Shown piece after piece: positions 11,962 through 56,944 of a DNA stretch of 64,000 nucleotides. The DNA is from Eledone cirrhosa. Its lineage: Eukaryota. The stretch covers positions 7,068,001 through 7,132,000 of the forward strand of contig OZ024765.1 of the NCBI GenBank assembly GCA_964016885.1. The letters run 5' to 3'. The stretch's first letter is position 1; every line of letters begins with the position of its first letter. Made by a program: the position numbers and the translations under genes. The notes below the pieces were generated by a model, which saw nothing but the letters and a program-made list of their open reading frames with translations, did no database searches and was not told where the DNA came from.

Positions 11962-12933
11962 TCACGCTGTTGAGTCAACTGGAGTATTCCCTCTTGTATA
12001 AATACATTTGTGAACAGTAAATTCACTACTCCGAGAGAATGATTTACCACAGATATCACAGTGATATGGTATTTCCCCTGTATGTATATGTGTGTGAACA
12101 GTCAAGTCTTTACTTACAGAGAATGATTTACCACATATATCACAGTGATATGGTTTCTCTCCTGTATGTGTACGTGTGTGACGAGTCAATTCAGCACTTC
12201 GAGAGAATGATTTATCACAAATATCACAATGATATGGTTTCTCTCCTGTATGTGTACGTATATGAACAGTCAATTCACCACTTTGAGAGAATGATTTACA
12301 ACAGATGTCACAGTGATATGGTTTCTCTCCTGTATGTGTACGTGAATGAATAATCAAGTTATTACTTGTAGAGAATGATTTACTGCAGATATCACAGTGA
12401 TATGGTCTCTCTCCTGTATGTGTACGTGTGTGAACAGTCAATTTATTACTTGTAGAGAATGATTTACCGCAGATATCACAGTGATATGGTTTCTCTCCTG
12501 TATGTATACGTTTATGAGTAGTTAAGTGACTATTTTCACAGAATGATTTACTACAGATATCACAGTGATATGGTTTCTCTCCTGTATGAATACGTTTATG
12601 AGTATTTAAATTCCTATTTTCAGAGAATGATTTACCACAGATATCACAGTGATATGGTTTCACTCCTGTATGAATGCGCAGATGAGCATTGAAGTTACTT
12701 CTTTTAGAAAATGATTTATCACAGATATCACAATGATATGGTGTCTCTCCTGTGTGTGTACGTGTATGAGAAGTCAGGTTAGCTCTTCCAGAGAATGATT
12801 TACCACAGATATCAAAGCGATATGGTTTCTCTTCTGTATTAACACACTTGTGAAGAGTTAAGTTATGTTTTTTAGAGAATGACTTTTTACAGATATTGCA
12901 GTAGTATGGTGATTTCTCTTGTCCATTTGCCAT
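11962..12933 (-). CDS. Tandem C2H2 zinc-finger protein (11 repeats, 8 with intact C2H2 ligands)
   Basis: 323-aa ORF of YHCDICxKSFS...HxRxHTGEKP repeats. Possible splice acceptors upstream (~12942, ~13313), so the true start is uncertain. Confidence 0.9.
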
Positions 12934-13638
12934 CTCCTCACCTAAAATGTATTCAGGTAAGTCTTAAATTCTTTTGTACCAACATTACCTCTTTTTTATA
13001 ATTTATTCTTAAGAAATATCCTTTCTGCTATATTTCCATCAACTTTGATCTTGATGTCAAAAGATGTTACAAACTCCTTTGTAATTTATCCAAGTTTAGT
13101 CACAATACAAAGTCAACTTCAACACATTCCAGACAGTAAAGTAGAGAAATGTTGGAATTAATCTCAGTTGAAATGAAATAGTTCACAGTAATTTACAGAT
13201 TTAATAAATCGACAAGGTCATATGTGTTCTGTATAGTCTTTAAAACATGAGAAATAAATATTGATGTTTTTGGTATAGAAAATACTTTAATGTTGATGTC
13301 ATCTAATATTCTGAAATAATAGAGAAACAGTATAAGATATTCAGGATATTTAAAGCTGGTTTAAAGTGTTTATGTTTATCTAACATATAAAATAGTGGTT
13401 ATCAACCTTATTTTACCTATGGACCTCTTTGATTCTTATTTTACTATGGTGGACCCCCATAGTAATTTGATGTTTAAAAAATCCTGTTTAAAGTGTTTAT
13501 ATTTATCTAACATATAGAAGATATATAAAATATAGTGATTCAAACTTGAGATTTTTACTATATTTCTACATTAATAAATTGTAGATATAAATGAACAATT
13601 GAACTAATCCAATTCAATCTTCCAAGACATATATGCAG

Positions 13639-15875
13639 TAGCACTGCCAATGACTGTACGTTCGTACAAAACTGTACGTTTTGCTCAAAATTTTGATGTG
13701 CTGTACATTCGGACGAATTTGCTGAACTTTTTAGTGATCTTGCCATCGGTTTATAAAATTCATGTTTTGACGCATTGATTGAGTGCATTTTCACATAAAT
13801 AAAAGCACGTGAGAATGCAGACGAGGCTTGTGCATGCAAGCGCGCGTTGACTTATGAGGTCAAGTGCGTCTGTAAATTTGGGGGAAGTATATGCCCAGTT
13901 TACCACGCCATATCTGTCATAACGCAGGAATTTTTCTCACAAACTGGTGTAAAAGGTGCGTGAATTTTTTTTCAAAAGTTTGATAGATTAGATTTAATTT
14001 TACAGCGCTAATAATTTATACAACCACGCCGTATCAGTCTGAACACAAAAGCAGAATTCTTATACATGTAAACGGTATGTGATGTTTTTAATAGTTTAAT
14101 TAATTCAAATAAATCTGATAGAACTAACTTGAACCAGATATGAGTGATAGAACTGTGAAACGAGAACATTCTTCAGATAACGAACATAAAGCAGCAGATA
14201 AGAAGGGTAGATGGGCATCGTATGAAAGGAAGCTTCCGTCCAAATTGTTGTACGATGAAAAGTTTTCTTCTTGGTTGGAAGTGGGCAAGAACGATACAAC
14301 TAAAGGCAAATGCATATTTTGCAAATGTGAAATTGCCGGCAGTTTGAGTCAAATTTTACGACATGAGTAGACAGAAAAGCACCGCAAGAATGCAAAAGAA
14401 GCGAATAAAGCAACGAGATTGAACAAATTTTAGCCAAGCCTCTTTGTTTTCTTCACATTCCAGGAAAGTAGTATCTGCTGAATTAAAGTACTGTGCATTT
14501 GTTGCTGAGCATAATCTACCCATCTCTATTTTGGACCAGTTGCCTGGCCTTGTTGTAAACGCCTGTCCTGATTCTAAAATTGCCCAGGATGTGAAGTGTG
14601 CCAGAACAAAAGGCACATCCATATTTTCAAAAGTCATCGGACCCTATGGCTTCAACACTTTATTAAAGAAGCTTCATTCGACAAAATTCTCCCTCATCAT
14701 CGATGAAACAACTGATGTTTCAATACTTAAACAACTCATCCTTGTATCCAGATATTACGACGTTGAAATTCAAAAGACTGTCAACGATTTTCTAACGCTT
14801 ATAGAAATAAATGATCACCCAAGCAACATTAGAGGATGGGTGTCCATCTACGGCTCGAAGAATTCTCACTTAAATGAAGAATCCTCTTACAAAGATGTAT
14901 TTTGCATTTCTATCTTTTATTTTAAACGACGTCAACAAACTTAATCTGGAATTCCAGGCCGAAAGCTATCGGATGCATCAACTCAAAAGAGCAATCAACG
15001 CTGGAATGAAGGGCATTTTGAGCAATTTCATTAAACCTGATTTACTTTCTGTCATCAATGTTTGTGAGATTAATGTCAACAATTCAATGGCACACCAACC
15101 ATTAGATCGTATCTACTTTGGTGCTGTAGCTGAGAGCATTTTACACGACAATTCTACCACCATTGCCCTTGATGAATTGCTGACCTTCCAACAGAATATA
15201 CTACGATTCTTTGTTTGTCTTTCAAACCAAATGCTAATGCGGAACAATTTGGAACTACTTGAGGCGTTAGACCCAACCAATGTCATGGAGGGAAGGCCGA
15301 GGTCAATAATTCCACTTGTTATGCGATTTCCAAGTCTTTGTGATGAGAAAGATTACGAAGAGATAAATCAGGAATGGCGGCACCTGACGATTCAAGGTTC
15401 TTCCTTCATCCCGCACAACGATCCAGAAAAATTGTAGTTTGCTGTCTCACAAGAGAAGTGTGGCGATGAAAACCGTTACCCTCTGCTGTCATCTCTTATG
15501 CTTAGTCTTCTTTCTTTACCCCACTCCTCCACAGCGGCTGAAAGAATTTTCTCTGTTCTCCACTCTATTAAATCAAAGAATCGAAATTGTTTGAAAACTT
15601 CCACTCTTAACGCTCTTGTTAGGTCAAAATATTTGTTACGACATGCCGACTGCACGAAGTGGGAGCCCGATGAACATCTTTGCAAAGCATTATTTGAAAA
15701 AAATTGGTACAACAGAGAATCTGCTCAGGAAGATGACGTTTCTTTTTGATGCACTTATGTTTAAATTGTCAATAAATGTTAACTTAAAAGATATGTATAA
15801 AAAGAGTGTTTTTGATTGTAATTGGGGGATTTAGTAAAATTCTGTACATTTTGAAAAAAACTTTTGGCAGCGCTG
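13639..15875 (+). mobile_element. hAT DNA transposon with disrupted transposase
   Basis: 8-bp TSD ATATGCAG at 13631-13638 and 15876-15883; TIRs TAGCACTGCCAA / TTGGCAGCGCTG. Confidence 0.92.
14140..15749 (+). pseudogene. hAT transposase pseudogene
   Basis: BED-finger-like CIFC..H..H, catalytic FSLIIDETTD and C-terminal LPHSSTAAERIFS dimerisation motif, split over four ORFs by stops, frameshifts and an internal deletion. Confidence 0.9.
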
Positions 15876-21867: not shown

Positions 21868-21987
21868 AATATAGGAATATATATATATATATATATACAT
21901 GGAAAGTTATATTTAAAATTGTTGGGTTACAACTAGTAAATATTTATAACTGATATAAAAGCACTCGACAAATATTTGGAGTATATT

Positions 21988-22358
21988 TACAATATTAAAT
22001 AAATGGAAACTATATTTATAAAACCATATTTATTTCATTATATATATTTCGGGGATATCATATTAACAATATGCTATGCCTTCCTCAGACAAAATACAAT
22101 ATAAACAGTTTTATAGATAAATAGATTCGACATACCGTAATAACATTGACTTGCATTTGCAGAGGTTAAACTGGCAGTTTAACCTCTGCAAATACAAGTC
22201 GATGTTATTACGGTATGTCGAATCTATTTATCTATAAAACTGTTTATATTGTATTTTGTCTGAGGAAGGCATAGCATATTGTTAATATGATATCCCCGAA
22301 ATATATATAATGAAATAAATATGGTTTTATAAATATAGTTTCCATTTATTTAATATTG

Positions 22359-22360
<2 letters not shown>
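21988..22360. repeat. Near-perfect 373-bp palindrome (centre 22174) abutting (TA)n
   Basis: Arms are reverse-complementary with about two transition mismatches and a 1-nt centre. Confidence 0.95.
22252..22317 (+). ncRNA. Type I hammerhead-like motif (mirror copy on - at 22031-22096)
   Basis: TATTTTGT-CTGAGGA-[stem II with CATATT/AATATG]-GAAA-TATATA-TA-ATGAAATA; the stem II closing pair is mismatched. Confidence 0.55.
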
Positions 22361-22394
<34 letters not shown>

Positions 22395-22950: not shown

Positions 22951-23181
22951 TTAGAGTGAGTTGTTGTGTATGGGGGCATTTTGTGAAAAAGTGTTTGAGC
23001 TGGTTGTGAGGAAAGATGGTGGCGGAACTAGGTGGGTGGAAAAGGATGAGAAGTACTCCGCAGCAAATTGCACCACATCGTCAGGTTTCCGTAGCAACAG
23101 GAACTGGAGAAAATCTGCAAGTAGGGACCGAATATCGGGTTTTTGTTGCAGGTAAATGGAGAAGTCATTCATGAATTTATC
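22951..23181 (-). CDS. CATIP: CATIP terminal coding exon (RIIa-like dimerisation/docking helix pair)
   Basis: TTTCCAG|DKFMNDFSIYLQQKPDIRSLLADFLQFLLLRKPDDVVQFAAEYFSSF...TAA. Confidence 0.92.
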   Translation of the reverse strand, partial: DKFMNDFSIYLQQKPDIRSLLADFLQFLLLRKPDDVVQFAAEYFSSFSTHLVPPPSFLTTSSNTFSQNAPIHNNSL

Positions 23182-26100
23182 CTGGAAACCAGAAAAAAGA
23201 AATAAGGGCGGTGAATTGGCAGTATTGGTAGAGGGTCGGACATGTTTTCCAGCATAGTTACGTCCCTTTACGATCTGAGTTCAAATCCCGCCGAAGTTAA
23301 CTTTGCTTTTCATCCTTATGGGGTTATGGGGGGTCTATCTCCAAAACCATAGGAGGAGTTCGTGAACAAACAGACAAGAACTACAACTTTATATATATAG
23401 ATATATAGGAAAAGAGTCAGGACCCCGACGGCTGAGCTCCGGCTGTTTCGACAGCTAGATCTGAACTCACTTTGGATCTAGCTGTCAAAACGGCTGGAGC
23501 TCAGTCATTGGGGTCCTGACTTTTTTCCTATTACCCACTCTACTACCCTAAGTATTGAGTACTCTGGTGCATTATGGTCCACCTGGTGTCTTACCGCACC
23601 CTCTTTGTTTTATATATATATATATATAACAAAGGAAGTGCGGTAAGGAACCAGGTGGACCATAATGCACCAGAGTACTCAATACTTAGGGTAGTAGAGT
23701 GGGTAATAGGAAAAGAGTCAGGACCCCGATGTTCAGATCTAGCTGTCGAAACAGCGGAGCTCAGCTGTCAGGGTCCTGACACTTTTCCTATATATATATA
23801 GACAATTATTAAATATATTAATAGATAAATAAATGACATTGTTAAATAATAAATAAATCAACTAATACCTTAACACTTCACACAAAGTAAAACATTTCGT
23901 TTTAATCATTTTCTAACCCAGAAAAAAGAGAGAGAGAAATAAAAAAAAGGGAAAAAAAAAAAATTTTTCTTCCTAATAATCATCTCTTTCTCCCTGTTTT
24001 CATATATATATATATATATATATGACCCCGACGGCAGAGCTCAAGCCGTTTCGACAGCTATTTCTGGACTGGCGTCCAGAAATAGCTGTCGGGGTCATAC
24101 ATTTTCATATTATCCACTCTACTACCCCAAGTATTGAGTACTCTGGTTCGTTATGGTCCATCTGGTTCTTTACCACATCTCCTTTGTTATATATATACAT
24201 ATATATATATATACAATATATTTAGAAACACACAGATACATGCGGACACACACATATATACATGAATGCATCCGCACCCAACTGTGAGTTAAGGGTGCCA
24301 ACTTCACCGATGTTGCTCAATGAATGACCGGGACAGACCAATTCAGTTGAACTAGACTGAACCAGTATCAGAGTTAAAAGTACATTATGAAGAGAGAAGA
24401 AACATTTAGATATAATTAGTAATAAAATGTATCATACCTAAACTGCCCCTAAATTCCTCGACTACGTAGTTTCGTGGCATAAACAAAAACAATATATCAT
24501 AAAGACATAGAGTCCCTGCGAGGTCTGCCGACTTATCAAGAGGATACCTCATTTTACTAGTCTCAAGAACGCGTCTACACGACGTGAGAAAGAATCCCAA
24601 AAGGCGGAGGGGGAGATAGTCACGCGATATAACGGTCGAGAAACGGTCGAGGCTTAGCTCTGTTTCTCGACCGTTATATCGCGTGACTATCTCCCCCTCC
24701 GCCTTTTGGGATTCTTTCTCACGTCGTGTAGACGCGTTCTTGAGACTAGTAAAATGAGGTATCCTCTTGATAAGTCGGCAGACCTCGCAGGGACTCTATG
24801 TCTTTATGATATATTGTTTTTGTTTATGCCACGAAACTACGTAGTCGAGGAATTTAGGGGCAGTTTAGGTATGATACATTTTATTACTAATTATATCTAA
24901 ATGTTTCTTCTCTCTTCATAATGTACTTATATATATATATATATATATATACATACATATATAACCAGGAGACAAAGTGAACTGACCAACCCAGTAAAAA
25001 AGGGGAACAATGGAACAAGTGGGTATAGGAAATCAATAAACAGGTGAAAAGGGAAGTAAATATGATGAATACATGAAAAAAAGGGGACACATTTGGTATC
25101 CCTTCAGTAACAAAAGAACTGACCTTTTTGTCAATAAACTTGCTCTTCATTTCCATGTCTGTGTCCACATCCAGGGGTTGTTTCTTAAATATTGGTTTCT
25201 TCTCACGTTCTTTGGAATAAGATATAATAATAATGGTTTCATTTCTAGGCCAGAAGGGCCAACGTATAGGGGACAATACAGAGACAGTGGTGGTGGGAGG
25301 GGGCAGTTTACAATAGAATCGAGGGAAAATACATACACAATAACAAAAACAACAATGAAAAAATATAAAAATATAAAATATATAAAAATATAACAAAATA
25401 AATTCCCAAATAGGGGGAGAGGGGGGGCAACCCATGGGTAACTCAGGTAACCCACCAATCATGAACCACCCAACGATTCGAGTGCATCCGCAAGAACACC
25501 CGTCGCCCCCCAAAAAAATTAACCGGCCTACAGACATGATCAAAGACCAATTTTTGCCACATTCACCCACCTTTTTTTTTGGGGGGGGGGGGGGGGGGGA
25601 TCCCCCCCCCCCCCCCCCCCCCCCCCCACCTTCCTTTTAAAATGATATTTAAAGAAAAAATGATGAGTTGTCGGGAGAGGGGGTGTTTGACCCCAGTCTT
25701 TATAATCTCGTCCACCATATCACTTCTTTCGCCATAGTCACCAGACAGAAAAACTGCCTCTCCTTCGGTGTTAAATGAAACTGGCAGGGTAATCCTCACG
25801 ATGGACTCGGATGACAACTGGATTCATCCTATGTGTGACAGTAACTGGCCAACATGATCCCACAGGTCGGAAACTCCAGGGCACTGAACAATTGCATGCA
25901 GAACGATTTCGACGTTCTGCTCACATCTTGCCTGCGTCCTTTTGGCAGGATCCCTGCCAGGGCATCCATACCTGTAGATTTTGTCTTGAACTGGTACAGC
26001 TTCTCGGTAACACTGCCAGGCCAGGCACCTCTGGAAATTATCCATAGGCCCTTGACCTAAAGTCCTCTGGAATAGACTGGCCAATTCATCCTCTTCGATG

Positions 26101-28201
26101 CCCAGAGTCTCCCTCAGAACGTCATCGCATTTATCCTCCTGGTGGTGTTTGTGTTGTTGGTGGTGGTGGTGTTTGTGGTGTTGGTGGTGTTTGTGGTGTT
26201 GGTGGTGGTGTTGGTGGTGGTGTTGGTGGTGTTTGTGGTGGTGGTGGTGGTGGTGTTTGTGGTGGTGGTGGTGGTGTTGTTGGTGGTGTTTGTGGTGTTT
26301 GTGGTGTTGTTGGTGGTGTTGGTGGTGTTTGTGGTGGTGGTGGTGTTGGTGGTGTTGGTGGTGTTTGTGGTGGTGGTGGTGTTGGTGGTATTTATGGTGG
26401 TTGTGTTTGTGGTGTTTGTGGTGTTGGTGGTGTTTGTGGTGGTGGTGTTGGTGTTTATGGTGGTGGTGGTGTTGGTGGTGTTTGTGGTGGTGGTGTTGGT
26501 GTTGGTGGTGTTTGTGGTGGTGGTGTTGGTGGTTGGTGTGTGTATGTTTTCTGTGGGTGTTGTTTTTGTGTTTTTCCTGTCATTTTTTTTTTTTTGCCTC
26601 TTTGATTTTTGGGGTGCCTCTTCATCCTCGCTTGGAGATGTAGAGGTTCCTGTGTCTTGGGTAGATGGCAGGGGTATGTTGTGTGGTGGAGTATTTGTAC
26701 AGGTGTTTAGGGGGCAAGGGAGAGCTTCTCAGGTAGATAGATAGGTAGGTAGGTAGTAGGTAGATGGATAGGTAGATACATGGACTGACAGATAGATATG
26801 TTTCTTTATTAGCCAGAAGGGCACAAAAGAAGGGGACAAATACAAAGGGGGAAGTTTACATACAATAAAAACGTGTAAAATGTTCACAAATGCAATTTAA
26901 AAATTAATCGATTTTCCCCAATAGGGGGAGACATTACATATGGGTAACACATACCCCCGAAAAAATGTGCAACCCTCATCTCCAGGAGTACGAAGAGTTT
27001 GTACTCCTTTCCTCTCCTCCTCCTTTTCCTCAACCTACAGGCTGATGTAGAGAGAAGGCCCATTCACTCGGGCCATTCTCGCCACTTTCACCCACCTTTC
27101 ATAAAACTTGCTGGGGTACAGCACCTCTCTCTCCATCCTGGGGTACAGCACCTCTCTCTCCATCCTGATTCTTCTTCCAAAGATAGATAGGTAGATAGAC
27201 ATATAGACAGAACATGTAGTAAAACTCACCTAAGGGTGGAAGTATGTGGATTGGAAGTTCAGTAGCCCTCATCCTTACATGGGAACCAATTTGAATTCGA
27301 CTTAAAAGATGTCTGCAATATATAAATTATAAACATAATTTATATATATATATATATACATAATTTATATATCCATATATATATATGGAAAAGAATGAAA
27401 TGAAATTTCATTTCACACTCTTAGTACGGCTTATACTTAAATATAAGTATGTATACGTACATACATATATGTATACAGACGTACAGTAGTATATATATAT
27501 ATATATACATACATGCACACATATATATATGTACGTATGGGTTTACCGAACATTTATTATAATGCTCGGTGTGTTTGTAAACAAACATCCCGAATTAAGC
27601 CGTACAGTATTCGGCAACCATCGTTGCCCTTTTGTTCAACACTGACAAACAAACCGAGCATTATAATAAATGTTCGGTAAATCCATACGTACATATATAT
27701 GTGTGTGCATGTATGTATATATACATACATACTAGTGTACGTCTGTATACATATATGTATGCACGTATACATACTTATATTTAAGTATCAGCCGTACTAA
27801 GAGTGGGAAATGAAATTTCATTTTTTTCCATTTATCGTTTTCGGTACACCCGGCCGATTAACCCACTCGATATGCAAATTGGGCTACTCAGCCGTTAATA
27901 TGCATAAGGAAAGTATATACTTTCAAACGTTCAATCATCTGACAGGAAGGTATACGATGCTGACAATAGCTAATAAGCTTGAAACTAGTTCATCGTTCCT
28001 TTGTCAGTGTCGAACAAAAGGGCAATGATGGTTGCCGAACACTGTACGGCTTAATTCGGAATGTTTGTCTACAAACACACCGAGCATTATAATAAATGTT
28101 CGGTAAACCCATACGTACATATATATATGTGTGCATGTATGTATATACATACTACTGTACATCTGTATATATATATGTATGTATGTATACATACTTATAT
28201 T

Positions 28202-28278
<77 letters not shown>

Positions 28279-29752: not shown

Positions 29753-32700
29753 ATATCAATATAAAAACCCGTAGAGCAAATATTTATTATAAGAACAGAT
29801 TAACGTTTAAGCAAAAAAATCACTGCTTTCACCCTTAACGGGATCTTCGGAAACTGAAAAAATATATATATATTGTTATATTTGGGGAGGTTCATATTGC
29901 CAGAAATATATAATAAAACACACTCACTGTTTGTGTTGGGTTGGGTTGGTTTTCGCTTCCATATATTTTATATCCCTATAATTAATTTAGCTGGCAATCA
30001 ATGTTTATCATTGATTGACTAACAGTTAAAAATATAGATATAAATATATAAATATATATATAATAGTATATGTAGAAATAAACACAGTAAATTCTGTGTC
30101 TAAAATTACGAGGGTAGAGAATGCCATAAATGTTTTATATATTTAATCTTAAACATGCAGTAGGATAATTCTATACTAATTATCCTACTGTATGTTTAAG
30201 ATTAAATATCTAAAACATTTGTGGCATTCTCTACCCTCGTAATTTTAGACACGGAATTTACTGTGTTTATTTCTACATATACTATTATATAATTGTTTCC
30301 ACTTTTGGCACAAGGCCATCAATTACCCAGTACATTACTGGTACTTTATTTTATCGACCCCGTAAGGATGAAAGACAAAGTTAACCTCGATGGGATTTGA
30401 ACTCAGAATGGCAAAGGACGTAACTATGCTGGAAAGCATGGCGTCCGACCCTCTACCGATACTGCCAATCCAGTGCCCTTATACTATTATATAATTGTTT
30501 CTACTTTAGGCACAAGGCCAGCAATTACCCAGTGCATTACTGGTACTTTATTTTATCGACCCCGTAAGGATGAAAGGCAAAGTCAACCTTGGCGGGATTT
30601 GAACTCAGATCGTAAAGGGACGTAACTATGCTGGAAAGCATGGCGTCCGACCCTCTCCTGATACTGCCAATCCACCGCACTTATACTATTATATAATGCT
30701 CAGTATTTATACTTTGAGCTTGTTAATTGCAGGGTATCTATATGAGTTAATAACTCTGTATTTTATTTGTATATATGTATATATATATATGAGGTTAATA
30801 TCCCCACAGGTACTAAGTACCTACGGAAATATAAAGGGTGTCTCTCCGGTTGCAACGTTTTTTTGAAATATCCAGTTCTGCGTTTACAGATTGACTTTGT
30901 TAGTTTCAGAAGATCCCGTTAAGGGTGAAAGCAGCGATTCTTTGCTTAAACTTTAATCTGTTATTTTAATAAATATTTGCTCTACGGTTCTTATATATTT
31001 GATATATATTTATCCTTATCGAGCCCTCTTTGGATTTTAGTCTTCAAATTTATTATTATTACTATATATATATATATATATATCTATATATATATATAGT
31101 AGCTCAGAGGTGTTTTGTCACACACCTGTGACATCATCAGTGATACTATTATGTTTCCTCCAGTCGTATTGTTGTAATGTTTACTTATTCTATTATTCAT
31201 TTATTTATATATATATATTTTTTTTTTCAGCACTTAAAAAGCTGAAAATTCAGCTTACATACATAATAATTATATATAATAGAATAACTAATGGGTTAAG
31301 AACTTTTCAGTCCTGAATGACCATAGGATTTGTACCTAGACAGTTCTCCTCCAAGGCACAAGTCCAGGCAAGGTTGTTTGTGGAAGACCAGCAGTCACCC
31401 ATGCATACCAGCCTCCCCTCTCCATGTCACCAATGTTGTCCAAGGGAAAGATAATGGCCAATACAACTTGATGATGACTGACAAGTTCTATACAACATCC
31501 ACAAATACATAAAGTCTAAAGCCTGTTTCAACCCTTTAGTATTTACATTACTCTAGATATACTATTGTATTTTCACAGTAAAGGCTTTACCTCACATAAT
31601 ATCTCACATAACATTTACATTACTCTATATATACTATTGTATTTTCACAGTAAAGGCTTCACCTCACATAATTACCTTAGATAATATTGAATTTATGAGA
31701 TTTTGATATCACTTATTTTGAGAACAATACCTTAACATCAGTATGAGTGGCTAGTTACAGCCAGTTTGAACAGAAAGAGGAGAAAGGATTCTGACTGGAT
31801 ATGGCTGGTTTACATGCTAAAGGATTCACCTGGTCAATGCTTATCTTGGTTTCCATGTCGGTAAGCGACTGACAGTACATAACTCCCTCCTGGATAAGAC
31901 GCCAGTCCATCACAGGGTTAATTTCCCCAGCTATTGCTGGTACTCATTTTCAGCTGTGTATACCGGTTTCTCTAGGTCACTAGATTAAGGACCCAACCCT
32001 TCCTAGGTGGGTGAGATGTCGACACAATGACACAACCAGTACAATATAGAATACAGGAGAGGTTTATCTAGGTCACTAGATTAAGGACCCAACCCTTCCT
32101 AGGTGGGTGAGATGTCGACACAATGACACAACCAGTACAATATAGAATACAGGAGAGGTTTCTCTAGGTCACTAGATTAAGGACCCAACCCTTCCTAGGT
32201 GGGTGAGATGTCGACACAATGACACAACCAGTACAATATAGAATACAGGAGAGGTTTATCTGGGTCACTCTTGTGGGTGAAATATCAACACAAGGACACA
32301 GCCAATACAATATAGAATACAAGAGGTTTCTCCAAGACAATGAAATATCCTTTACCCATCCTCAATAAATTGGTAATTCCATGATATTGGAGAATCAATC
32401 TTGGAGAATATTGTCCTCTGAAGACTTATTGTGTTAATGTCTTCATTGTTGATAACCATTTTCTTCTCACCAAGACTTTTCTGCAAAATTAACAAAAGTA
32501 CAAATAAATTCATTTCGTAGACTGACACAATTATATATATATATTTTTATCTTCCTGTCACCCAGCTTGTGAAGTGTATTGTTGTTGATCATTAGCCCTT
32601 GGTCTCTGTCCTCTGAGGCATTTTTGCCCATCGCTGTCTTTGACAGTATTTAGCTGTTTTAACGACTGTTCTAGCGATGAGTTTTCTCATTTATATATAT

Positions 32701-33765: not shown

Positions 33766-36700
33766 TGCTGTGTTATTTCTGTTCACCTTTTATATACATA
33801 TATATATAGCTATAGTTGATGAAGGAAACAAAACAAACACAGGGATCCAAAAATACAGTTATATTAGTTTCACACTTGGAGGAAATGGAAGAGGGTTTGA
33901 CAGTGGAGGGCATGGTACTTACAAAGTCACTATTACAAAGGTAACCATCAGAGTCCTGGGTTGGTACAATAAAGTCCTTCAATAGAGTCCCTTTACTAAC
34001 AAGTGCCCTCAGAAGTAAAGTGTTCGATCCTGGCAAATAAAATATCAAAACAAAGATTGAAATATAAACGATTTTATCAACCCCAGCATATTACCAGTAC
34101 TAGAATTTATCAGGCAAAATAATATCAAGGTAGAGAAAGTAAAAATATATATACTGTCTAACACAGGGTAGCGTGGAAGATGGACGTTAAACGATGATGA
34201 TGATATAAAGTGTGTCAGGAAAGAAACAGGACTATGGTAGCTAAAAAATATTTCAAATCCAAACTACAAGTTTTCCTCTTCGAAATAATCCCCACTGGGG
34301 TCTATTATACATTCTTATCCTTCTCTGCCACACTTCCTAGGATTCTTCCAGGATTCTTCACAGCTCCATCTTCATGGCCCTCTTGGTGGATTCCTTGTCC
34401 AGGAAACGGGTTGTACTCTAAAATCCATGACTCATCAATGGTGATGATTCTCCCCAGCAAGTCTGGTTCGTTTTCAAGACACTCAAGGATGTCCTGACAC
34501 ACCTGCATGTGCTGCTCTTTCTGGCCATTGTTCAGCAGCTTCGGTAACATCTTCGCACAAATTTTCCGCATGACCAAGTCTTCGATGATAATCTTCCAAA
34601 TGCCGTTGTGGTTCATGCCCAACTCACTTGCAATCAGTCTAACAACCAGCTGATGATCGCCACATACCACCTGCTTCACATCTTCACTGTTGGCTTCAGT
34701 CTTGCTTGTTGAAAGCCTTCCACTCCTGGAGTCCTCTTTCATCTTTTGTGCCACTTGAAAACCCAGGAACATGACATCATCTCATCTCTGTACACTTGCT
34801 GCAGTATTCCGAATGCTTCTGGCGGAGTTTTCTCAAGCCAGACCAGAAGCTTCAGGTTGGTTCGTTGCTCTGTGTCCATCGCTCGATGGACTAAAATTGA
34901 GGAGCTGTGAACAAAATCACGTGAATAAAAACATAGAATGGCTGTAGAGAGCTGAGATCATAGTGTAGCAAGCAATAGTGCTACTTTATCGTGGTGGAGT
35001 AATTTGGTCGTGCTTGGTCAGTTGCCAGCCCTTAGGGTTGGTGGCGTAGGAATACTAAAAATGACTTCCGTCCAGCAGTCGATTTCGCACTAATTATCAA
35101 TTCTCCCGCAGTTACATTCGGGATCTTCTACTGAGCAGCACCGTGTAACTTGCTTCCTGATCTTTCCTGATCTTCCCTTCTAAAGCCGAAGGTAATCTCG
35201 ATATATAACTCTGCGGAGAATTATCGTTCAACTTGACTATGCGATATGTTTGCAGTTCTTCACTCGCCTTGTATTTGTATTAATATGAAGAAGAAAATAA
35301 ATCTTTATTAGGTTTTAAAATATGCCTTCTGAACTTTTCCGCCACCATGGAATATGAACTTCATTATTACGGTGGATTGGCAGTATCGGTGGAGGGTTGA
35401 ACGGGGTCGATAAAATAAAGTACCAGTAATGCACTGGGTATTTGCTGGCCTTGTGCCTAGAGTAGAAACAATTATTACATCTGTGTTTTCCTGAAGTAGT
35501 AATCTCTACTAACCTTTCAGTCCAACATCTAATTGCTACCTTTATCAATTGTACCATTGTGAATCTCTCTTGAACACCTCTCTGCTACCATTACAACAAA
35601 AGTACTTATTACTAAAATAGAATTACTAATTACAGCACACGACCAAAGCCGTCAGCCCTCCCCATCAGAAAACACCAGAAGTACATAATGAAGCAGATCA
35701 TAGTAAGCAACTGCAGAATATGTGGTGGAGGTGGGTAAGAAACTACCACATAATCTCTAGCTGCCCAGTCTTAGCCAGACATGATAGAGTAAGGACCTAG
35801 ATACACTGGAAATTATGCCAACATTATGAAATACTAACAGAAAACAGATGGTACAGATGCACACCAGACAGACAGATCAAAGCCAACCATCCACATATCA
35901 TAAAAGAATGTCTTCTAATTGATGTAACCCCACAGACGACAGTATGTCTACCTAGGAAATGGTGAAATTATCCAAATATAAAGATCTAGTGATAGAAATA
36001 GCCCGGATGTGGATGAAAGGCAAAGCTGACAGGATTTGAACTCAGAACATAAAGGGACGTAACTCTATGCTGCAAATTATTTTTTCCGATGCTCTACCGA
36101 TACTGTCAATCCACCACCTTAATAATAATAATTGTTTCTACTTTTGGCACAAGGCCAGCAATTACCCCAGTGCATTACTGGTTCTTTATTTTATCGACCC
36201 CGTAAGGATGAAAGGCAAAGTTAACCTCGGCGGGACTTGAACTCAGATCATAAAGGGACGTAACTCTATGCTACAAAGCATGCCACCTTAATAATAATAT
36301 TGGTTTCTGATTTAGGTACAAGACCAACAACTTTGGGGGGGGGGGAGGGGAATCAATTAAATTGACCCCAGTTTGCGTTACAGGTACTTTATTTTATCGA
36401 CCCCGTAAAAATGAAAGGCAAAGCTCACCTCAGCAGGATTTGAACTCTGAATGTAAAGGGCAATAATAATAATAATAATGATGATAATTATAATAATAAG
36501 AGTGCAAGAGAAGGAGAAGGAGAAAATTAACCGATACCAGGATTTAAAGTGGGAATCAAAAAGGGTTTGGGACTGTCATGAGATCAAGGTCATCCAGGTT
36601 GTCATAGGAGCACTAGGTACTATCTCAAAGAGTTTCCAGGGATGGTTAAAGAACATTAGTCCAGACCCCTTTTTTGGAACACTTCAAAAGGCATGCTTGC

Positions 36701-39700
36701 TGGGAACAGCAAGAACCCTCCGATACGTCCTGAATATCTGAGGCTGTAGGGAGTGGCTTGATATTCATTTCAACAAACTTTCCAGTTAAATAACATCAAT
36801 GACTGAGACTCCAAGAATAATAATAATTGTTTCTATTTTTGGCACAAGGCCAGCAATTACCTCAGGGTATTACTGGTACTTTATTTTATCGACCCCATAA
36901 GGATGAAAGGCAAAGTTATAATAATAGTTTCTTTATTTTAATAATAATAATAAAATACCTTCTAATATTAAAATTGGCAGATCTTTGACATTCCATCCTT
37001 TCTGAATTTGGTAAGTTTCCTAAGAGAAAAAAAAAAGGATAAAAAATTGAAAAGATTAGAGTAACACCAGCTCTAACTGTTCCTGGGTCTAGGGATCAAA
37101 ACTGCTTATTTTAAAATATTTATATTTATGTAACAGTTAGGTCAGGCTTCTGTCTGCTACTGGTACCATCTAACTCAGTACAACCTGCTTCATGATCAAG
37201 TGGTTGGTGACTAAACCAGCTCCTTCATCAGATCCTGGTCAGGTCAGGCTTCTGTCTGCTACTGGTACCATGTAACCCAGTACAACCTGCTTCATGGTCA
37301 AGTGGTTGGCGACTAAACCAGCTCCTTCATCAGATCCTGGTCAGGTCAGGTCAGGCTTCTGTCTGCTACTGGTACCATGTAACCCAGTACAACCTGCTTC
37401 ATGGTCAAGTGGTTGGCGACTAAACCAGCTCCTTCATCAGATCCTGGTCAGGTCAGGTCAGGCTTCTGTCTGCTACTGGTACCATGTAACCCAGTACAAC
37501 CTGCTTCATGGTCAAGTGGTTGGCGACTAAACCAGCTCCTTCATCAGATCCTGGTCAGGTCAGGTCAGGCTTCTGTCTGCTACTGGTACCATGTAACCCA
37601 GTACAACCTGCTTCATGGTCAAGTGGTTGGCGACTAAACCAGCTCCTTCATCAGATCCTGGTCAGGTCAGGCTTCTGTCTGCTACTGGTACCATGTAACC
37701 CAGTACAACCGGCTTCATGGTCAAGTGGTTGGCGACTAAACCAGCTCCTTCATCAGATCCTGGTCAGGTCAGGCTTCTGTCTGCTACTGGTACCATGTAA
37801 CCCAGTACAACCTGCTTCATGGTCAAGTGGTTGGCGACTAAACCAGCTCCCTCATCAGATCCTGGTCTGGTGAGGAGTGTAAGTGGAACCCCTACAGCAC
37901 TAAGTAGTGGTGAGTACAGCTACACTCCTGAAGACATGACCAAAACCAAACAGAAAGCAGTGGAGGTCAACCAAAGAGGGGTTCCTACAAGAGGTGTGAG
38001 AAGGACTGGACTGGGCAGTTATCTAGCAATCCTCCATCATGTTCTTGTGTTCTTGATAGATTTAAAAATTATTTGAAAACTTTAGGCAATGTCTTTTATG
38101 ATAAATATTGTAACAAAAGGGTGAAAATGTCAAGTGGTAGTGTTATTTCCATGGTAAATTACACCCAGTACACTCTGTAAAGTAATATAGGTGCCATGGT
38201 AAAATGCTGCTGATAGTGTTGATGGTGGTGATGATGATAGTGGTGTTGGTGATGGTGATAAATTGATGATAATGATGATGATGATGGTGGTGATGATAAT
38301 GATGATGGTGGTAATGGTGATGGTGATAATGGTGGTGGTGATGATGGTGGTGGTGATGATGGTGGTGGTGGTGATGATGGTGATGGTGATAATGGTGGTG
38401 GTGATGATGGTGATAATAATGATTTCCACTATAGGCTAGCAATTTTGGGGGAGGGGGAAGTCGATTAAATTGACCCCAGTGCATTACTGGTGCTTTATTT
38501 TATGATGATAATAATGATGATGGTGATGGTGATAATGATGGTGGTGATGATGATGGTGATAATGATGGTGATGGTGATAATAATGATGATGATGGTGATG
38601 ATGATGGTGGTGGTGATGATGGTGGTGATGATGGTGGTGGTGATGATGGTGGTGGTGATGGTGGTGGTGATGATGATGGTGGTGATGGTGGTGGTGGTGA
38701 TGGTGGTGGTGATGATGATGGTGATGATGGTGGTGGTGATGGTGGTGGTGGTGGTGGTGATGGTGGTGGTGATGATGATGGTGGTGGTGATGGTGATGAT
38801 GGTGGTGATGGTGGTGGTGGTGGTGGTGGTGGTGATGGTGGTGGTGGTGGTGATGATGGTGATGATGGTGGTGGTGATGGTGGTGGTGGTGGTGGTGGTG
38901 ATGATGGTGGTGGTGGTGATGATGATGATGGTGGTGGTGATGGTGGTGGTGATGATGGTGGTGGTGGTGGTGGTGGTGGTGGTGATGGTGGTGGTGGTGG
39001 TGATGATGGTGATGATGGTGGTGGTGATGGTGGTGGTGATGATGGTGGTGGTGATGGTGGTGATGATGGTGGTGGTGATGGTGGTGGTGGTGGTGGTGAT
39101 GATGGTGGTGGTGGTGGTGATGATGGTGGTGGTGGTGATGGTGGTGATGATGGTGGTGGTGATGGTGGTGATGATGGTGGTGGTGATGGTGGTGGTGGTG
39201 GTGGTGATGGTGATGGTGGTGGTGGTGGTGATGGTGATGGTGGTGGTGATGGTGGTGGTGGTGGTGGTGATGATGGTGGTGATGGTGGTGGTGATGGTGA
39301 TGGTGGTGGTGGTGGTGATGATGGTGGTGGTACGCTTACCTGTCCTTCAGTAACAGTTTTGATGAATACATACATCCCGTTTTTTCGTGTAATTAAGGTT
39401 TTCCGATCAAGAGGGTACGGCTTCAACTACAACAACAACAACAACAACAAGGGTTTCTGATTCAGGTACAAGGCCAACAATTTAGGGGGAGGGGACAGCC
39501 AATGGCCAACTTTGAATGGTATTTTATTTTATCGACTTTGGAAGGATGAAAGACAAAGTTGATCTTCACCAGATTTAAACTCAAAACATACAGAGCTTGT
39601 ACAGATGAAGAATAATGATTTCTACTATAGGCACATCATCATCATCATCATCATCATCATTTTACGTCCGCTTTTCCCTGCTTGCAAGGGTGAGACGGGT

Positions 39701-42700
39701 CCTATTCAGCACAGCATCTCTCCATTTGTCACGGTCCCTCGTCATCTCCACCGTGAGCTTCAGCGATCTGAGGTCTGCTCTCACAACCTCCGCCCATGTT
39801 TTTCGTGGCCTACCTTTACCACGTCTTCCTTCAACTGGCATTTCTTGGCACTTCTTCACCCATCGGTCATCCTCCATGTGCATCACATGTCCATACCACT
39901 CTCAGTCTCCTCTCCCGTACACTACATTCTATCCCTCTCACACAGTTTCTCTCTCAACACATCACATGTCCATACCACCTCAGTCTCCTCTCCCGTACAC
40001 TACATTCTATCCCTCTCAGACACAGTTTCTCTCTCAACACATCACATGTCCATACCACCTCAGTCTCCTCTCCCGTACACTACATTCTATCCCTCTCAGA
40101 CACAGTTTCTCTCTCAACACATCACATGTCCATACCACCGCAGTCTCCTCTCCCGTACACTACATTCTATCCCTCTCAGACACAGTTTCTCTCTCAACAC
40201 ATCACATGTCCATACCACCTCAGTCTCCTCTCCCGTACACTACATTCTATCCCTCTCAGACACAGTTTCTCTCTCAACACATCCATGTTGGGTCGTTCAC
40301 ACACATTTACACTGCACATCCAACGGAGCATGCTTGCCTCATTTCTCTCCAGCTGCCGCGTATCCTCTGCAGTTGCTGCCCATGTCTCACTACCATGCAG
40401 CATCACGCTCAAGGTCAGCAATTTGGGGAGAGGGGCAAGTTGATTAAATCAACCCCAGTGCATTACTGGTACTTTATTTTATCGACCCCCGTAAGGATGA
40501 AAGGCAAAGCTAACCTCGGCGGGATTTGAACTCAGAATGTAAGAGGCCACTAAGCATGGTGTCCAACGCTCTACCAATTCTGCCAATCCACCGCCCTAAT
40601 AATAATGGTTTCTTATACAGGCGCAAGGTCAGCAATTCGGGAGGAGGGGAAAGTCGATTAAATCGCCCCCAGTGCGTGACTGGTACTTTATTTTATTGAC
40701 CCCATAAGGATGAAAGGCAAAGCTAACCATAGCGGGATTTGAACCCAGAAAGTAAATGACTATAACTCTATGCTGCAAAGCATGGTGTCTGACGCTCTAC
40801 CGATTCTGCTGACTGTGAATAAAGACTACTACCTTGAAAGGGTGAAATTGTGAAGTTGTTAGAGAAAAGTGGATGTATGCTGTGTACAAGAGGTGAGATG
40901 GAGGGGTGCGTCAGTGAGACTAGTCACAGGCAAACTTTACTGGGCAGGAAATGATGATGAGGTAAGAGGTGTACATGTAGTTAGAGTGACAGAATTATCA
41001 GGCTGAACATAGCTGTAGGAAATAAAATGGTGACAATTATATCAACCTATGCTCCAGAGGCAGGACTAAGTAAAGAACAAAAAGACAGGTTCTATGAGGA
41101 ACTTTTACAGATAACTTTAAGTATTGATGACTTCATCATCTTGGCAGGTGACTTCAATGGATGTGTGGGACAGTACCAGGAAGGATTTAGGGGAGTTCAT
41201 GGTGGCTATGGATATGGGAAGTGAGGCACCTGGAATTCTGTGATACAAATGAACTAACCTTTGCAACACAAATTTCAGGAAACCATCTAGCAATCTGATC
41301 ACATATCTATCTGGCAAATACACAAGCCAGATAGACTTCTTACTTGTAAGACATAATAGAAAGACTGTAATAAATACTAAGGCCTTCTCTTGGGAAGAAT
41401 GCCCCACCCACCACAAGTTAGTTATTAGTGACATCAGAATAAACATAAGACAGAACAAGACATGCAGGAAAACATGGAGATGGAGGGTTTGGAAGCTAAA
41501 GGACCTTTCGGTTAAATATAGGCTTAGATAGGCCCTATGGGATGCATTATCATAAACAACAACGTAAAATGAAACATCTTGCTCAAGACCACAATGTACT
41601 ACCTGGTTGAGGGAGGATCAAACACACAACCTTATAATATAATCGTGATGAGAACAACACGGGGACCAGTAAGCCATCAGCCAACTTACCTCCACGTATT
41701 CATGGTGTCGTTGTTCCAAGGTCTGTAGTTTCTTATCGACATAAGCCACAAGGGAAGTTCCGCAGAGAATCCCATCAATGTTGCCAACACTTTTTGCTGT
41801 GATGCTGTAACACTCTTCATCCTGGAAAGTACACTTTTTAATAGATATAAGGAACTCTCCAAGGTCTCCATCATTAGAGGTAGTAATGAGGCTGTCATCA
41901 AACGCCAGCTGCTCCAAATCTGTCTCTTCTGAAATTATTAAACAAAGCATTTTCTTTTTTCTTTTTGTTTTGTATTTTTATTATTTTATTAACTTCCTTT
42001 CATTTTCATATAAAAAGCCATGATAAAAAGCACCCAGTCCACCCTGTAAAGTGTGTCGTACTGGGGACATGATGAAAAAAGAACCCAGTCCACCCTGTAA
42101 AGTGTGTCGTACTGGGGGCATGATAAAAAGCACCCAGTCCACCCTGTAAAGTGTGTCGTACTGGGGACATGATAAAAAGCACCCAGTTCACCCTGTAAAG
42201 TGTGTCGTACTGGGGACATGATAAAAAGCACCCAGTCCACCCTGAAAAGTGTGTCGTACTGGGGACATGATGAAAAAAGAACCCAGTCCACCCTGTAAAG
42301 TGTGTCGTACTGGGGGCATGATAAAAAGCACCCAGTCCACCCTGTAAAGTGTGTCGTACTGGGGACATGATGAAAAAAGAACCCAGTCCACCCTGTAAAG
42401 TGTGTCGTACTGGGGGCATGATAAAAAGCACCCAGTCCACCCTGTAAAGTGTGTCGTACTGGGGACATGATAAAAAGCACCCAGTTCACCCTGTAAAGTG
42501 TGTCGTACTGGGGGCATGATAAAAAGCACCCAGTCCACCCTGTAAAGTGTGTCGTACTGGGGACATGATAAAAAGCACCCAGTTCACCCTGTAAAGTGTG
42601 TCGTACTGGGGACATGATAAAAAGCACCCAGTCCACCCTGAAAAGTGTGACGTACTGGGGACATGATGAAAAGCATCCAGTCCACCCTGTAAAGTGTGTC

Positions 42701-49247: not shown

Positions 49248-49310
49248 TTTTATCTGATGAGGACATACTGAAAAAACAGCACAGTACCTTCGAAATATAT
49301 ATAATAAAAC
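49248..49310 (+). ncRNA. Minimal type I hammerhead-like motif
   Basis: TTTTAT-CTGATGA-GGACATACTG..CAGTACCTTC-GAAA-TATATA-TA-ATAAAA; same layout as 22252-22317. Confidence 0.6.
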
Positions 49311-51860: not shown

Positions 51861-53571
51861 ATATATTCTTTAATATTTCAACGTTAAAGGCATATATCCT
51901 TCTGAAAGAATCGCGAGCAATTTATAATGTTATCTAAGCATTTGTAATGTTATTTAAAACATATTTGTTATGTTACCCCCCAGTAAAGGAATACAAGCAT
52001 ACTAAAACACGAAGACGGAGAAGAAATACTCACTCACGCATATATCTATATATACATACTTATTGTCATATACACACATACTGACATACATACATACATA
52101 AATATTGACATACACATACATATACTCATTCATACATACACACGAATATATATATACATACACAAAAGCCAAACGCTAAAGGTGTTAATATATATAAAAG
52201 GACAGCTTACCAGAGATACCGAAGAAAACAAAAAAATAAACACTAAGAGGTGTTTAACAGTTCCCAAGTGATATATCCATATGTATGTATGTGTGTGTAT
52301 ATATGTGTGTGTATGTGTGTGTGTTTAACGTGGGTAGGTGTGTGGTTGTGCGTAGGTGTGTATGGTCGGAAAACAGCGGAAGGATTCTTCACCAAAACTC
52401 TACAGGTTTAACTCGCTCCGTTCTAACAATGGTAAACTTTGTCTATCTCTCTATCTGTCTGTCTTGTTAAACTCCAAATATTTATGTTATGTAATTAAAT
52501 AGCCAAACCTTGGTCACTATAGCAATGATGTTAGCGTCACTAACCGGTGTAGACGGAAAAGGAACTCCGAAATTTAAAAAAAAACGCGTTTTCAACACTT
52601 CAGGATTATCTCCCCTATCGAAGAAACTAAAAAAAAAAACTAACACATTGTTTTTTTTTCCGTTTCTTTTTCTACATCAAGATTTATTTTACGAAGCGTT
52701 CATAGGCTCCATGAAGAAGTTATGCTAGAGCTGTGAAATCTTAATTTCAATTCTTCTTATTAATAACTGCATTATTTCTTTCCAGGGACTATGTTACAAA
52801 ATAAATCTCATTTCGTCATTCCATGAGAGTATCTTGGTCAGTTTATGAACTTTTCAGCCGAGTCACGTATATATCATCATCTTGGCAGTATCGGTAGAGG
52901 GTCGGACGCCATGCTTTGAAGCATAGAGTTACCCCCCTTTATAATCTGAGTTCAAATCCCGCCGAGGTTAACTTTGCCTTTCATCCTTACGGGGTCGATA
53001 AAATAAAGTACCAGTCAGGCACTGGCGTAATTGCTGGCCTTGTGCCAAAAGTAGAAACAATTATTTTAATGTCCGATTCCAGCTTAACCCCAAAGTCCTC
53101 CATGTCTTAACTTTAGACACCTTTACTGTCTCTGCTGCGATTCTTCATGCCTGCTTCTACCTCAAGTATGAGAAGGAGGACATATTTCCATGCTAAACTT
53201 TGTAGGCCTCCTTCTTTGCTCATGATTGAACCAAGGGGTTCCTCTGCCATTTGGTGCCAAACGAAGACTCTTTCGCACGCAGCATTTAATAACTGAAGCA
53301 GAAACTGCTAAATTGAACAATCTCTGAATTTGGTTGCAATAGTATCTGCATAGCTAATCTTTACTTCCTTATTTACCAACGGTTCCCACTTTATCCGGTA
53401 AGTCAACATGGATCTGCTAGTTTTGTGGGCTTCTTTGACTTGAGGTAGACTCAAGTTGCAGATAACTAGATGCATATATATTTATCTATGTGCACACACA
53501 CACACACACACACACACACAGTGAAAGAGTGAAGAATAACATGGTCGGCTGTACAAAAAGGGTTTTATTTA

Positions 53572-53686
53572 CAGTATTAACAATTGTTTCATTGATCAGG
53601 TGAGTCTAAAGGCCGCTAATCACTCGAAGTTGCGTCACTCGACCTTAAATACAGTGTATGTCTCTGATCAAATCATCGGAATACTG
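53572..53686 (-). ncRNA. Type I hammerhead motif, CCGAUGA core variant
   Basis: CAGTATT-CCGATGA-T-TTGATCAG...CTGATCAA-T-GAAAC-AATT-GTT-AATACTG, followed by AATAAA. Confidence 0.7.
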
Positions 53687-55905: not shown

Positions 55906-55912
55906 GCTATAT

Positions 55913-56103
55913 AGGCGGTGGATTGGCAGTATTGGTAGAGTGTCGGATGCCATGCTTTGGCGCATAGAGTTACGGCCCTTGCCATTCTGAGTTCAAATCC
56001 CGCCGAGGTTAACTTTGCCTTTCATCCTTACGGGGTCGATAAAATAAAGTACCAGTAATACACTAGGTAATTGCTGGCCTTGTTCCTAACGTAGAAACAA
56101 TTA
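55913..56103 (+). mobile_element. Abundant tRNA-derived SINE (representative copy)
   Basis: GGCGGTGGATTGGCAG..GAGTTCAAATCCCGCCGAGG..GCCTTTCATCCTTACGGGGTCGATAAAATAAAGTACCAG..; more than ten copies, e.g. ~23207, 30290-30680, 36010-36460, 40415-40810, 52882, 53810-54115, 58630-59000. Confidence 0.88.

Positions 56104-56899: not shown

Positions 56900-56944
<45 letters not shown>

What the first reader, a model, noticed from the sequence alone, without database searches (positions are those of the whole stretch)
24378..24928. 551-bp palindrome with outward-facing U3-A8 variant hammerheads in the last CATIP intron
Seen: 267-bp arms with no mismatch I could find, each holding TCCTC-TTGATAA-...-GAAACTACGTAGTC-GAGGA. 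The core has a compensatory C3-G8 to U3-A8 swap, as expected if that tertiary pair is maintained. In either direction of transcription the antisense arm is made before the ribozyme arm. Inference: the fold-back would sequester the ribozyme in a long duplex, which could explain tolerance in the CATIP pre-mRNA and create an ADAR substrate ~200 nt from exon 8. Arm identity implies a young or gene-converted insertion.
Basis: partly seen in the sequence, partly recalled or inferred. Interest (0 to 1): 0.8.

Follow-up and report, generated by a model that had tools for sequence, protein, structure and literature searches.

The report
Octopus retrozyme insertion, Penelope-type palindrome
The palindrome is one young, two-armed insertion of a ribozyme-carrying mobile repeat with thousands of copies in this octopus genome, likely made when a Penelope-like retrotransposon enzyme copied one RNA from both cut DNA ends, so it is probably not a CATIP control element.

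Summary
Observation confirmed: 267-bp arms with no mismatch, two outward-facing U3-A8 hammerheads, last CATIP intron, 195 nt from exon 8. The feature is larger than reported (about 24214-24928). It is one insertion of a non-coding ~595-bp tandem repeat (a retrozyme) with 7,681 exact hammerhead copies in the genome.

Head-to-head arms, a 3' tail on one arm, (TA)n targets and U3-A8 cores are published Penelope-like-element (PLE) traits. A second hammerhead palindrome lies 2 kb away.

New here: arms end at +80 (A) or about +244 (B) after the cleavage site. Two-armed insertions carry one of each (28 of 30; held-out 10 of 13; the rest unresolved). In 15 of 28, each arm holds sequence the other lacks, which favours two priming events on one RNA over fold-back copying. 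Arm identity reflects youth, not conversion. Inherited variants are A-to-G biased on the ribozyme strand (22 vs 7), possibly an ADAR footprint.

Caging is not needed to explain tolerance. The CATIP-sense site is at 24460, not 24846. No cleavage, RNA or long-read data were obtained, and the mobilising PLE is inferred.

The parts
24214..24928 (.). Whole two-armed insertion of the ~595-bp retrozyme family, 3' ends pointing outward
   Evidence: BLAST to the unit taken from L028; ends and (TA)n flanks
24214..24644 (-). Long arm: unit positions 413-597 then 1 to about 246 (numbered from the hammerhead cut site); ends at site B
24645..24648 (.). Inversion junction: 4 extra bases that repeat the end of the left arm (short templated slip), followed by 3-nt microhomology
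   Evidence: sequence
24649..24928 (+). Short arm: unit positions 400-597 then 1 to about 80-83; ends at site A; holds 13 nt (400-412) that the long arm lacks
24378..24644 (-). Left 267-bp palindrome arm
24662..24928 (+). Right 267-bp palindrome arm
24762..24851 (+). Type I U3-A8 hammerhead, antisense to CATIP; predicted cut after 24846
24455..24544 (-). Type I U3-A8 hammerhead, sense in CATIP pre-mRNA; predicted cut 3' of 24460
   Evidence: gene strand
24188..24213 (.). (TA)n target, left part
24929..24963 (.). (TA)n target, right part
25124..25209 (-). CATIP coding exon 8 (host gene context)
22951..23181 (-). CATIP last coding exon, RIIa domain (host gene context)

Best explanation
This is one young, 5'-truncated, two-armed insertion of a non-coding ~595-bp hammerhead-bearing tandem repeat (a non-LTR retrozyme), likely mobilised by a Neptune-type Penelope-like retrotransposon protein, and its palindrome is likely a by-product of priming reverse transcription from both cut ends of a (TA)n target. 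Shown: the family, its copy number, the (TA)n targets, two fixed 3' ends (A at +80, B at about +244), one end of each kind per two-armed insertion, scattered 5' truncations, and conservation of the hammerhead. Inferred: source arrays are transcribed; tandem hammerheads cleave as dimers through the 10-bp palindromic helix III to give a monomer or circle; the PLE endonuclease cuts both strands of (TA)n; one end primes at A and the other at B on the same ribozyme-sense RNA (or identical copies of it); both cDNAs stop at random points and are joined head to head by microhomology. This copy has no full unit and one hammerhead per strand, so it is probably dead on arrival and neutral for CATIP, apart from forming a likely edited intronic duplex.
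For: 7,681 exact copies of the 19-nt 3' half of the hammerhead and 6,042 of the 5' half, control 0. Units of 585-598 bp in tandem. Of 68 non-redundant insertions from contig 1, 30 are two-armed and all have 3' ends outward; 28 of 30 are A+B, 0 are A+A or B+B, 2 are unresolved (P=4e-9 for 28:0); single arms are 20 A, 15 B, 3 unresolved; 90 of 93 A/B ends abut TA-rich sequence. Held-out set ascertained by an A end: 39 insertions, 13 two-armed, of which 10 A+B, 1 ambiguous and 2 running off the fetched stretch. In 15 of 28 simple two-armed insertions, including this one, neither arm is contained in the other. 20 of 30 insertion-private shared variants are seen on both arms. Older subfamilies (about 77% identical) keep the hammerhead halves at 96% and 93% against 67% for loop II, and use the same ends (17 A+B of 26 two-armed). 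An autonomous family in the same genome (938-aa RT + GIY-YIG frame) has a U3-A8 hammerhead, 10,520 exact motif copies, ends at +82 or +150 in (TA)n, and one of each in 7 of 8 inverted pairs. Published: inverted 5'-truncated copy with a tail at one end (PMC8557442; PMC3846280); a PLE protein cuts and extends both strands and starts at two internal sites that bound the tail (PMC11167929).
Against: No DNA homology between the unit and the Neptune family beyond microsatellite, and no family copy was found joined to a PLE reading frame (the one neighbour, L191, is a nested insertion). The partner is therefore inferred from anatomy only. Two of 19 resolved two-armed old copies look A+A. 13 of 28 two-armed insertions are also compatible with fold-back copying, two of them with both arms starting at the same base. 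Hammerhead helices are invariant rather than covarying: 0 pairs with changes on both sides. 5' truncations do not gather at the cut site (1 of 95 within 5 nt, about 1.8 expected), so in vivo cleavage is not shown. The samples were ascertained by exact motifs and favour young copies.
Confidence: 0.8

Rival explanations
1. Same family, but the second arm is made by fold-back (self-priming) of the first cDNA or of an antisense template, or the arms were homogenised later by gene conversion.
For: Proposed for rotifer Penelope elements from palindromes at the junctions (PMC3846280 passages). 13 of 28 two-armed insertions have one arm containable in the other; 6 of 27 have 5' points within 32 nt of each other (P=0.07).
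Against: 15 of 28, including this locus, have sequence unique to each arm. Inverted arms are no more alike than tandem units. The inherited A-to-G excess is on the ribozyme-sense strand, which fits a sense template if it is editing.
Confidence: 0.1
2. One reading: a hairpin-caged ribozyme and ADAR substrate that matters for CATIP processing and is tolerated because it is caged.
For: Perfect 267-bp duplex 195 nt from the exon 8 donor; antisense arm made first. Octopus has very high hyper-editing tied to long dsRNA (PMC5625713 passages).
Against: About 44% of this family's sampled insertions look like this; another family's hammerhead palindrome lies 2 kb away; the arms show no divergence, so there has been little time for selection; a lone hammerhead lacks a dimer partner anyway.
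Confidence: 0.05
3. Assembly fold-back artefact.
For: Perfect arms. No long read or contig spanned the locus in the four runs laid.
Against: The arms are unequal and end at two family-specific sites; the flanks are different unique sequences; the junction has a templated slip; 38 other loci show the same A+B plan with different junctions.
Confidence: 0.02
4. A MITE-like DNA transposon with long terminal inverted repeats.
For: Palindromic and flanked by TA.
Against: 38 of 68 insertions have a single arm; inner junctions are scattered; units occur in head-to-tail arrays; the two outer ends differ.
Confidence: 0.02

Closest known systems
Metazoan non-LTR retrozymes (PMC7229834, passages; bioRxiv 10.64898/2026.07.22.740005, part 1 of 5 and passages)
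   Same: Non-coding tandem repeat with one type I hammerhead per unit, GC 42%, strongly folded (z -5.5 as a circle), thousands of copies, monomers to arrays of at least 19 units, co-occurring with autonomous PLEs.
   Different: Unit of about 595 bp against 150-450 bp in PMC7229834; PLE-type U3-A8 core with long helix II; fixed dual 3' ends and head-to-head arms, which I did not see described for retrozymes in the passages read. Circular RNA not tested.
EN+ Penelope-like elements, Neptune clade (PMC8557442 and PMC3846280, passages; PMC11167929, parts 1-2 of 4)
   Same: Inverted 5'-truncated copy head to head, tail on one arm only, partial tandems, microsatellite target, hammerhead upstream of the 3' ends.
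   Different: No reading frame; tail of about 164 nt against 30-40 bp published (about 68 nt in the Neptune family of this genome); no sequence homology to the local Neptune pseudo-LTR.
PLE minimal/variant hammerheads, including the U3-A8 variant of Schistosoma Cercyon and the Drosophila virilis variant (PMC4209133, parts 1-2 of 4)
   Same: U3-A8 core, 5-bp helix I, bulged helix II, palindromic helix III suited to dimers.
   Different: Helix II carries a further ~45-nt hairpin; 10-nt palindrome in helix III. Activity untested.
L1 twin priming (recalled, from no call)
   Same: Both target ends prime on one RNA and give an inverted segment.
   Different: Two fixed internal start sites and a tandem or circular template make the arms overlap and form long palindromes.

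Membership tests
Non-LTR retrozyme | Head-to-tail tandem repeat with a complete type I hammerhead in at least two consecutive units | tested here: met
   Arrays of 2 to at least 19 units elsewhere in the genome; intact core in 89 of 91 copies of the segment. This locus itself is a truncated copy.
Non-LTR retrozyme | No protein-coding capacity, no LTR retrotransposon body | tested here: met
   Only short stop-to-stop frames over the locus; no PLE protein match continuous with any copy.
Non-LTR retrozyme | Unit size 150-450 bp | tested here: not met
   585-598 bp; range from PMC7229834.
Non-LTR retrozyme | Expressed as self-cleaved linear and circular monomers | not testable with these tools
   No RNA holder listed.
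PLE-type insertion | Inverted 5'-truncated copy head to head, with tail at one end only | tested here: met
   28 of 30 and 10 of 13 two-armed insertions.
PLE-type insertion | AT-rich or (TA)n target | tested here: met
   90 of 93 A/B ends.
Autonomous PLE (Neptune) | RT plus GIY-YIG reading frame between pseudo-LTRs | tested here: not met
   Absent from the unit; present in a separate family, L091.
Non-autonomous derivative of a given PLE family | Sequence homology to the partner's pseudo-LTR | tested here: not met
   None with the L091 family or the 42 GIY-YIG loci examined; about 10,600 GIY-YIG candidates exist, so most were not examined.
Type I hammerhead ribozyme | Core nucleotides, 3-8 pair, NUH triplet and three helices | tested here: met
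   constrained fold -22.1 against MFE -23.2 kcal/mol.
Type I hammerhead ribozyme | Covariation supporting the helices | tested here: inconclusive
   13 of 14 pairs in helices I-III never vary in 12 sequences; no compensatory change.
Type I hammerhead ribozyme | Self-cleavage | not testable with these tools
   Needs an assay.

The most novel reading that the evidence does not exclude
The family's RNA is edited by ADAR before reverse transcription, so editing is written back into the octopus genome and drives this retrozyme's sequence evolution (A-U pairs turning stepwise into G-U across subfamilies). The strand of that bias, together with the one-A-one-B rule, would show that Penelope-like elements integrate by two-site twin priming on a sense, probably circular, RNA.
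Probability: 0.3. Interest if true: 0.75.

Novelty: new variant of a known kind. Interest (0 to 1): 0.42.

Why it matters
The locus itself is ordinary repeat DNA. The family is a useful natural data set for two open points.

First, how PLEs make their tandem/inverted structures is called unresolved in PMC8557442, and PMC3846280 favours self-priming on an antisense template. Here thousands of near-identical young insertions give a countable rule (one A end plus one B end, arms often not nested) that matches the two-site, both-strand biochemistry of PMC11167929.

Second, PMC7229834 leaves RNA editing as one possible cause of retrozyme heterogeneity. The strand-specific, homoplasic A-to-G bias here makes that testable in an animal with very high editing.

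Roughly 1,600 such perfect hairpins from this family alone (extrapolated) may also add to the high dsRNA potential reported for octopus (PMC5625713).

Tried and rejected
Rfam: no hammerhead hit. The unconstrained fold of the arm fragment did not give the ribozyme and had z 0.37.

Search for the autonomous parent: 42 GIY-YIG loci, a sister family that proved to be an older non-coding subfamily, and a pattern for relatives with a shorter helix II, which gave 11 hits, mostly deletion copies. No parent with shared sequence was found.

Reads: no RNA holder listed. Four runs laid gave no record spanning the locus, so presence/absence and editing were not testable. Two runs labelled as other organisms hold one ~98% identical unit contig at low depth together with another high-copy repeat of this genome. 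I read this as trace DNA, not as evidence of horizontal transfer, and cannot settle it.

Enrichment of 5' truncations at the cut site: not seen. Gene conversion: rejected.

Results against the ADAR reading: insertion-private shared variants 5 A>G vs 5 T>C (P=0.33); sites newly recurrent after adding held-out copies 2 vs 4; 3'-G context not significant (P=0.15).

My first two pair-count calls had a wrong length and a wrong register; one search is the valid one. PMC5785218 (dimer cleavage of PLE hammerheads) is not held; only its title was seen. Two look-ups of earlier scan findings returned nothing. Supplements were not read and may hold octopus families.

Full report
OBSERVATION. The arms 24378-24644 and 24662-24928 are exact reverse complements (267/267). 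Each carries a type I hammerhead with core UUGAUAA (U3-A8), 5-bp helix I, a bulged 6-bp helix II extended by a further hairpin, and a 10-nt palindrome at helix III. The ribozyme-constrained fold is within 1.1 kcal/mol of the minimum. Helix III pairs form with only 6-8% probability in a monomer, while the intermolecular 10-bp form is -12.9 kcal/mol. Rfam does not detect it. CATIP lies on the minus strand: Pfam CATIP_N and RIIa, an Octopus bimaculoides homologue at 78% identity, nine coding exons by tblastn, exon 8 at 25209-25124 and the last exon from 23181. The host is therefore an octopod, by inference. The sense hammerhead in the pre-mRNA is the left arm (cut at 24460).

WHAT IT IS. The arm matches many places in the 3.0-Gb genome at 99%, often at 595-597-bp spacing. 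The 19-nt 3' half of the hammerhead occurs exactly 7,681 times and the 5' half 6,042 times, with controls at 0. The first 100 hits fall in 48 regions, which extrapolates to about 3,700 insertions. The unit is 585-598 bp, 42% GC, non-coding, and folds far better than shuffles (z -5.5, 40 shuffles). Numbered from the cut site, this locus is a minus-strand arm 413 to about 246 plus a plus-strand arm 400 to about 80, joined by a 4-nt templated slip, between (TA)n runs. The insertion thus spans about 24214-24928. The reported palindrome is only the overlap of two unequal arms. Neither arm has a full unit.

THE END RULE. I sampled 68 non-redundant insertions from the first 60 Mb of contig 1, ascertained by exact hammerhead motifs (one segmental duplicate dropped). 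30 are two-armed and all have 3' ends outward. 28 have one end at +80 (A) and one at +244 to +252 (B), none has two alike, and 2 are unresolved. The 38 single arms are 20 A, 15 B and 3 unresolved. 90 of 93 A/B ends abut TA-rich sequence. A held-out set of 39 insertions picked by an A end gave 13 two-armed: 10 A+B, 1 ambiguous (ends at +86 without TA), and 2 running off the stretch. Older subfamilies, 71-84% identical, gave 17 A+B, 2 apparent A+A and 7 unresolved of 26. In 15 of 28 simple two-armed cases, including this locus, each arm holds sequence the other lacks, so neither can be a fold-back copy of the other; 13 of 28 are compatible with fold-back. 5' truncations are spread over the unit, with 1 of 95 within 5 nt of the cut site.

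AGE AND TEMPLATE. Divergence over a 205-nt segment is 0.20% between inverted arms (41 pairs), 0.22% between tandem units of one insertion (45 pairs) and 2.1% between insertions (4,000 pairs). Variants private to one insertion are shared by all its copies, in 20 of 30 cases across both arms. One insertion with five full units shares five variants absent from the other 21. Both arms and all units therefore come from one template sequence. A circular monomer would give this; a homogeneous source array would too. Conversion is not needed.

RIBOZYME CONSERVATION. Against the older subfamilies the hammerhead halves are 96% and 93% conserved, the A motif 92%, loop II 67% and the unit 77%. Helices I-III are invariant rather than covarying. 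This indicates selection on the ribozyme at family level, not activity of this copy.

PARTNER. The genome holds many GIY-YIG elements (10,596 candidates, 150 scored), with the cysteine linker described for the Neptune and Nematis clades; I call them Neptune-type on that basis, without a tree. One family has a 938-aa RT plus GIY-YIG frame between two U3-A8 hammerheads and 10,520 exact motif copies. Its ends lie at +82 or +150 in (TA)n, with one of each in 7 of 8 inverted pairs among 30 loci. Its short end lies at nearly the same distance from the cut site as site A. It shares no alignable sequence with the unit, so it is a candidate only.

A-TO-G BIAS. Among variants found in two or more of 84 young insertions (positions 194-257 excluded as microsatellite-like), A>G is 24 and T>C is 7 on the ribozyme strand (P=2e-5), while singletons are symmetric at 12 and 20. 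The Neptune pseudo-LTR shows no such bias (0 and 2, few sites). Polarised by the older subfamilies: A>G 22, T>C 7, G>A 11, C>T 5. 19 of 22 have a 5' U or A (P=0.013), and the sites are mostly paired (0.84 vs 0.60). A/G sites are homoplasic on a poorly resolved tree (24 of 30, against 5 of 13 C/T sites). In the loop II hairpin a run of A opposite an unchanged U run turns stepwise into G from old to young copies. The held-out set repeats the bias (15 vs 5, P=0.001) but largely at the same sites; newly recurrent sites (2 vs 4) and private shared variants (5 vs 5) show none. These tests were post hoc. ADAR editing of the template is the simplest reading; selection for wobble pairs and polymerase error bias are not excluded.

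COMPARISON WITH WHAT IS KNOWN. U3-A8 cores, dimer architecture, opposite-strand pairs 100-700 bp apart and inactivity of single minimal motifs: PMC4209133 (parts 1-2 of 4 read). Inverted truncated copy, tail at one end, (TA)n bias: PMC8557442 (passages) and PMC3846280 (passages). Both-strand cutting, two internal start sites bounding the tail, protein-assisted hammerhead: PMC11167929 (parts 1-2 of 4). Retrozymes as tandem repeats giving circles, with editing raised as a possibility: PMC7229834 (passages). Retrozymes as non-autonomous PLEs, 42-44% intronic in Xenopus: bioRxiv 10.64898/2026.07.22.740005 (part 1 of 5 and passages). Review passages: PMC6765202. Octopus hyper-editing: PMC5625713 (passages). 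An O. vulgaris repeat annotation lists Penelope-like families and has no mention of ribozymes (PMC13282606, passages). Seven literature searches (listings only, beyond the papers named) showed no paper on an octopus retrozyme, on a counted one-end-of-each rule, or on an A-to-G footprint in retrozyme copies. The library lacks most subscription papers and I read no supplements.

VERDICT. The feature is real but is one of many copies of a mobile element with known PLE anatomy. A second, C3-G8 hammerhead palindrome of another family sits at 21982-22366. The CATIP-specific reading has little support. What is worth following is the family: a large-unit U3-A8 retrozyme with a 164-nt tail, a strict two-end rule that favours twin priming, and a possible editing footprint.

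Noticed in passing
window 21982-22366 and 49248: Second outward-facing hammerhead palindrome (192-bp arms, 98%) of a different family with a C3-G8 core and (TA) palindromic helix III; a related single motif at 49248.
   Followed up: partly
L091 (G000:C1:145868000-145877000), L096: Young autonomous Neptune-type PLE family with a U3-A8 hammerhead, 938-aa open frame and 10,520 exact motif copies; L096 is a two-armed copy with one short and one long end.
   Followed up: partly
L138-L140 (G000:C2:334.19-334.22 Mb): Array of at least 19 full 596-598-bp units, 0.45% divergent; a candidate source locus or nascent satellite.
   Followed up: partly
unit positions 353-361 (e.g. L028:1447-1455): TATA-like motif about 150 nt upstream of the hammerhead, largely kept in older subfamilies; absent from both arms of the window copy. 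Possible promoter, untested.
   Followed up: no
window 23400-23790, 24025-24190, 27393-28217: Other TA-flanked palindromic repeats. The 24025-24190 family is very abundant in reads, and its (TA)n tail is the target of the retrozyme insertion.
   Followed up: no
runs X5 and X9 laid on window 24227-24832: Runs labelled as other organisms hold a ~98% identical unit contig at low depth along with another high-copy repeat; probably trace DNA, horizontal transfer not excluded.
   Followed up: partly
window 11962-12963 (-): C2H2 zinc-finger array reading frame, 333 aa.
   Followed up: no
window 14128-15749 (+): Broken frames resembling a hAT-type transposase (by eye; no Pfam hit for the piece tested).
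   Followed up: no
window 30281-30625, 36121-36958, 39509-40765, 52882-58973: Many copies of a SINE-like repeat with a reverse B-box-like motif (label recalled).
   Followed up: no
L093, L094, L097, L101: Further Neptune-type families with their own hammerhead-like motifs and (TA)n ends.
   Followed up: no
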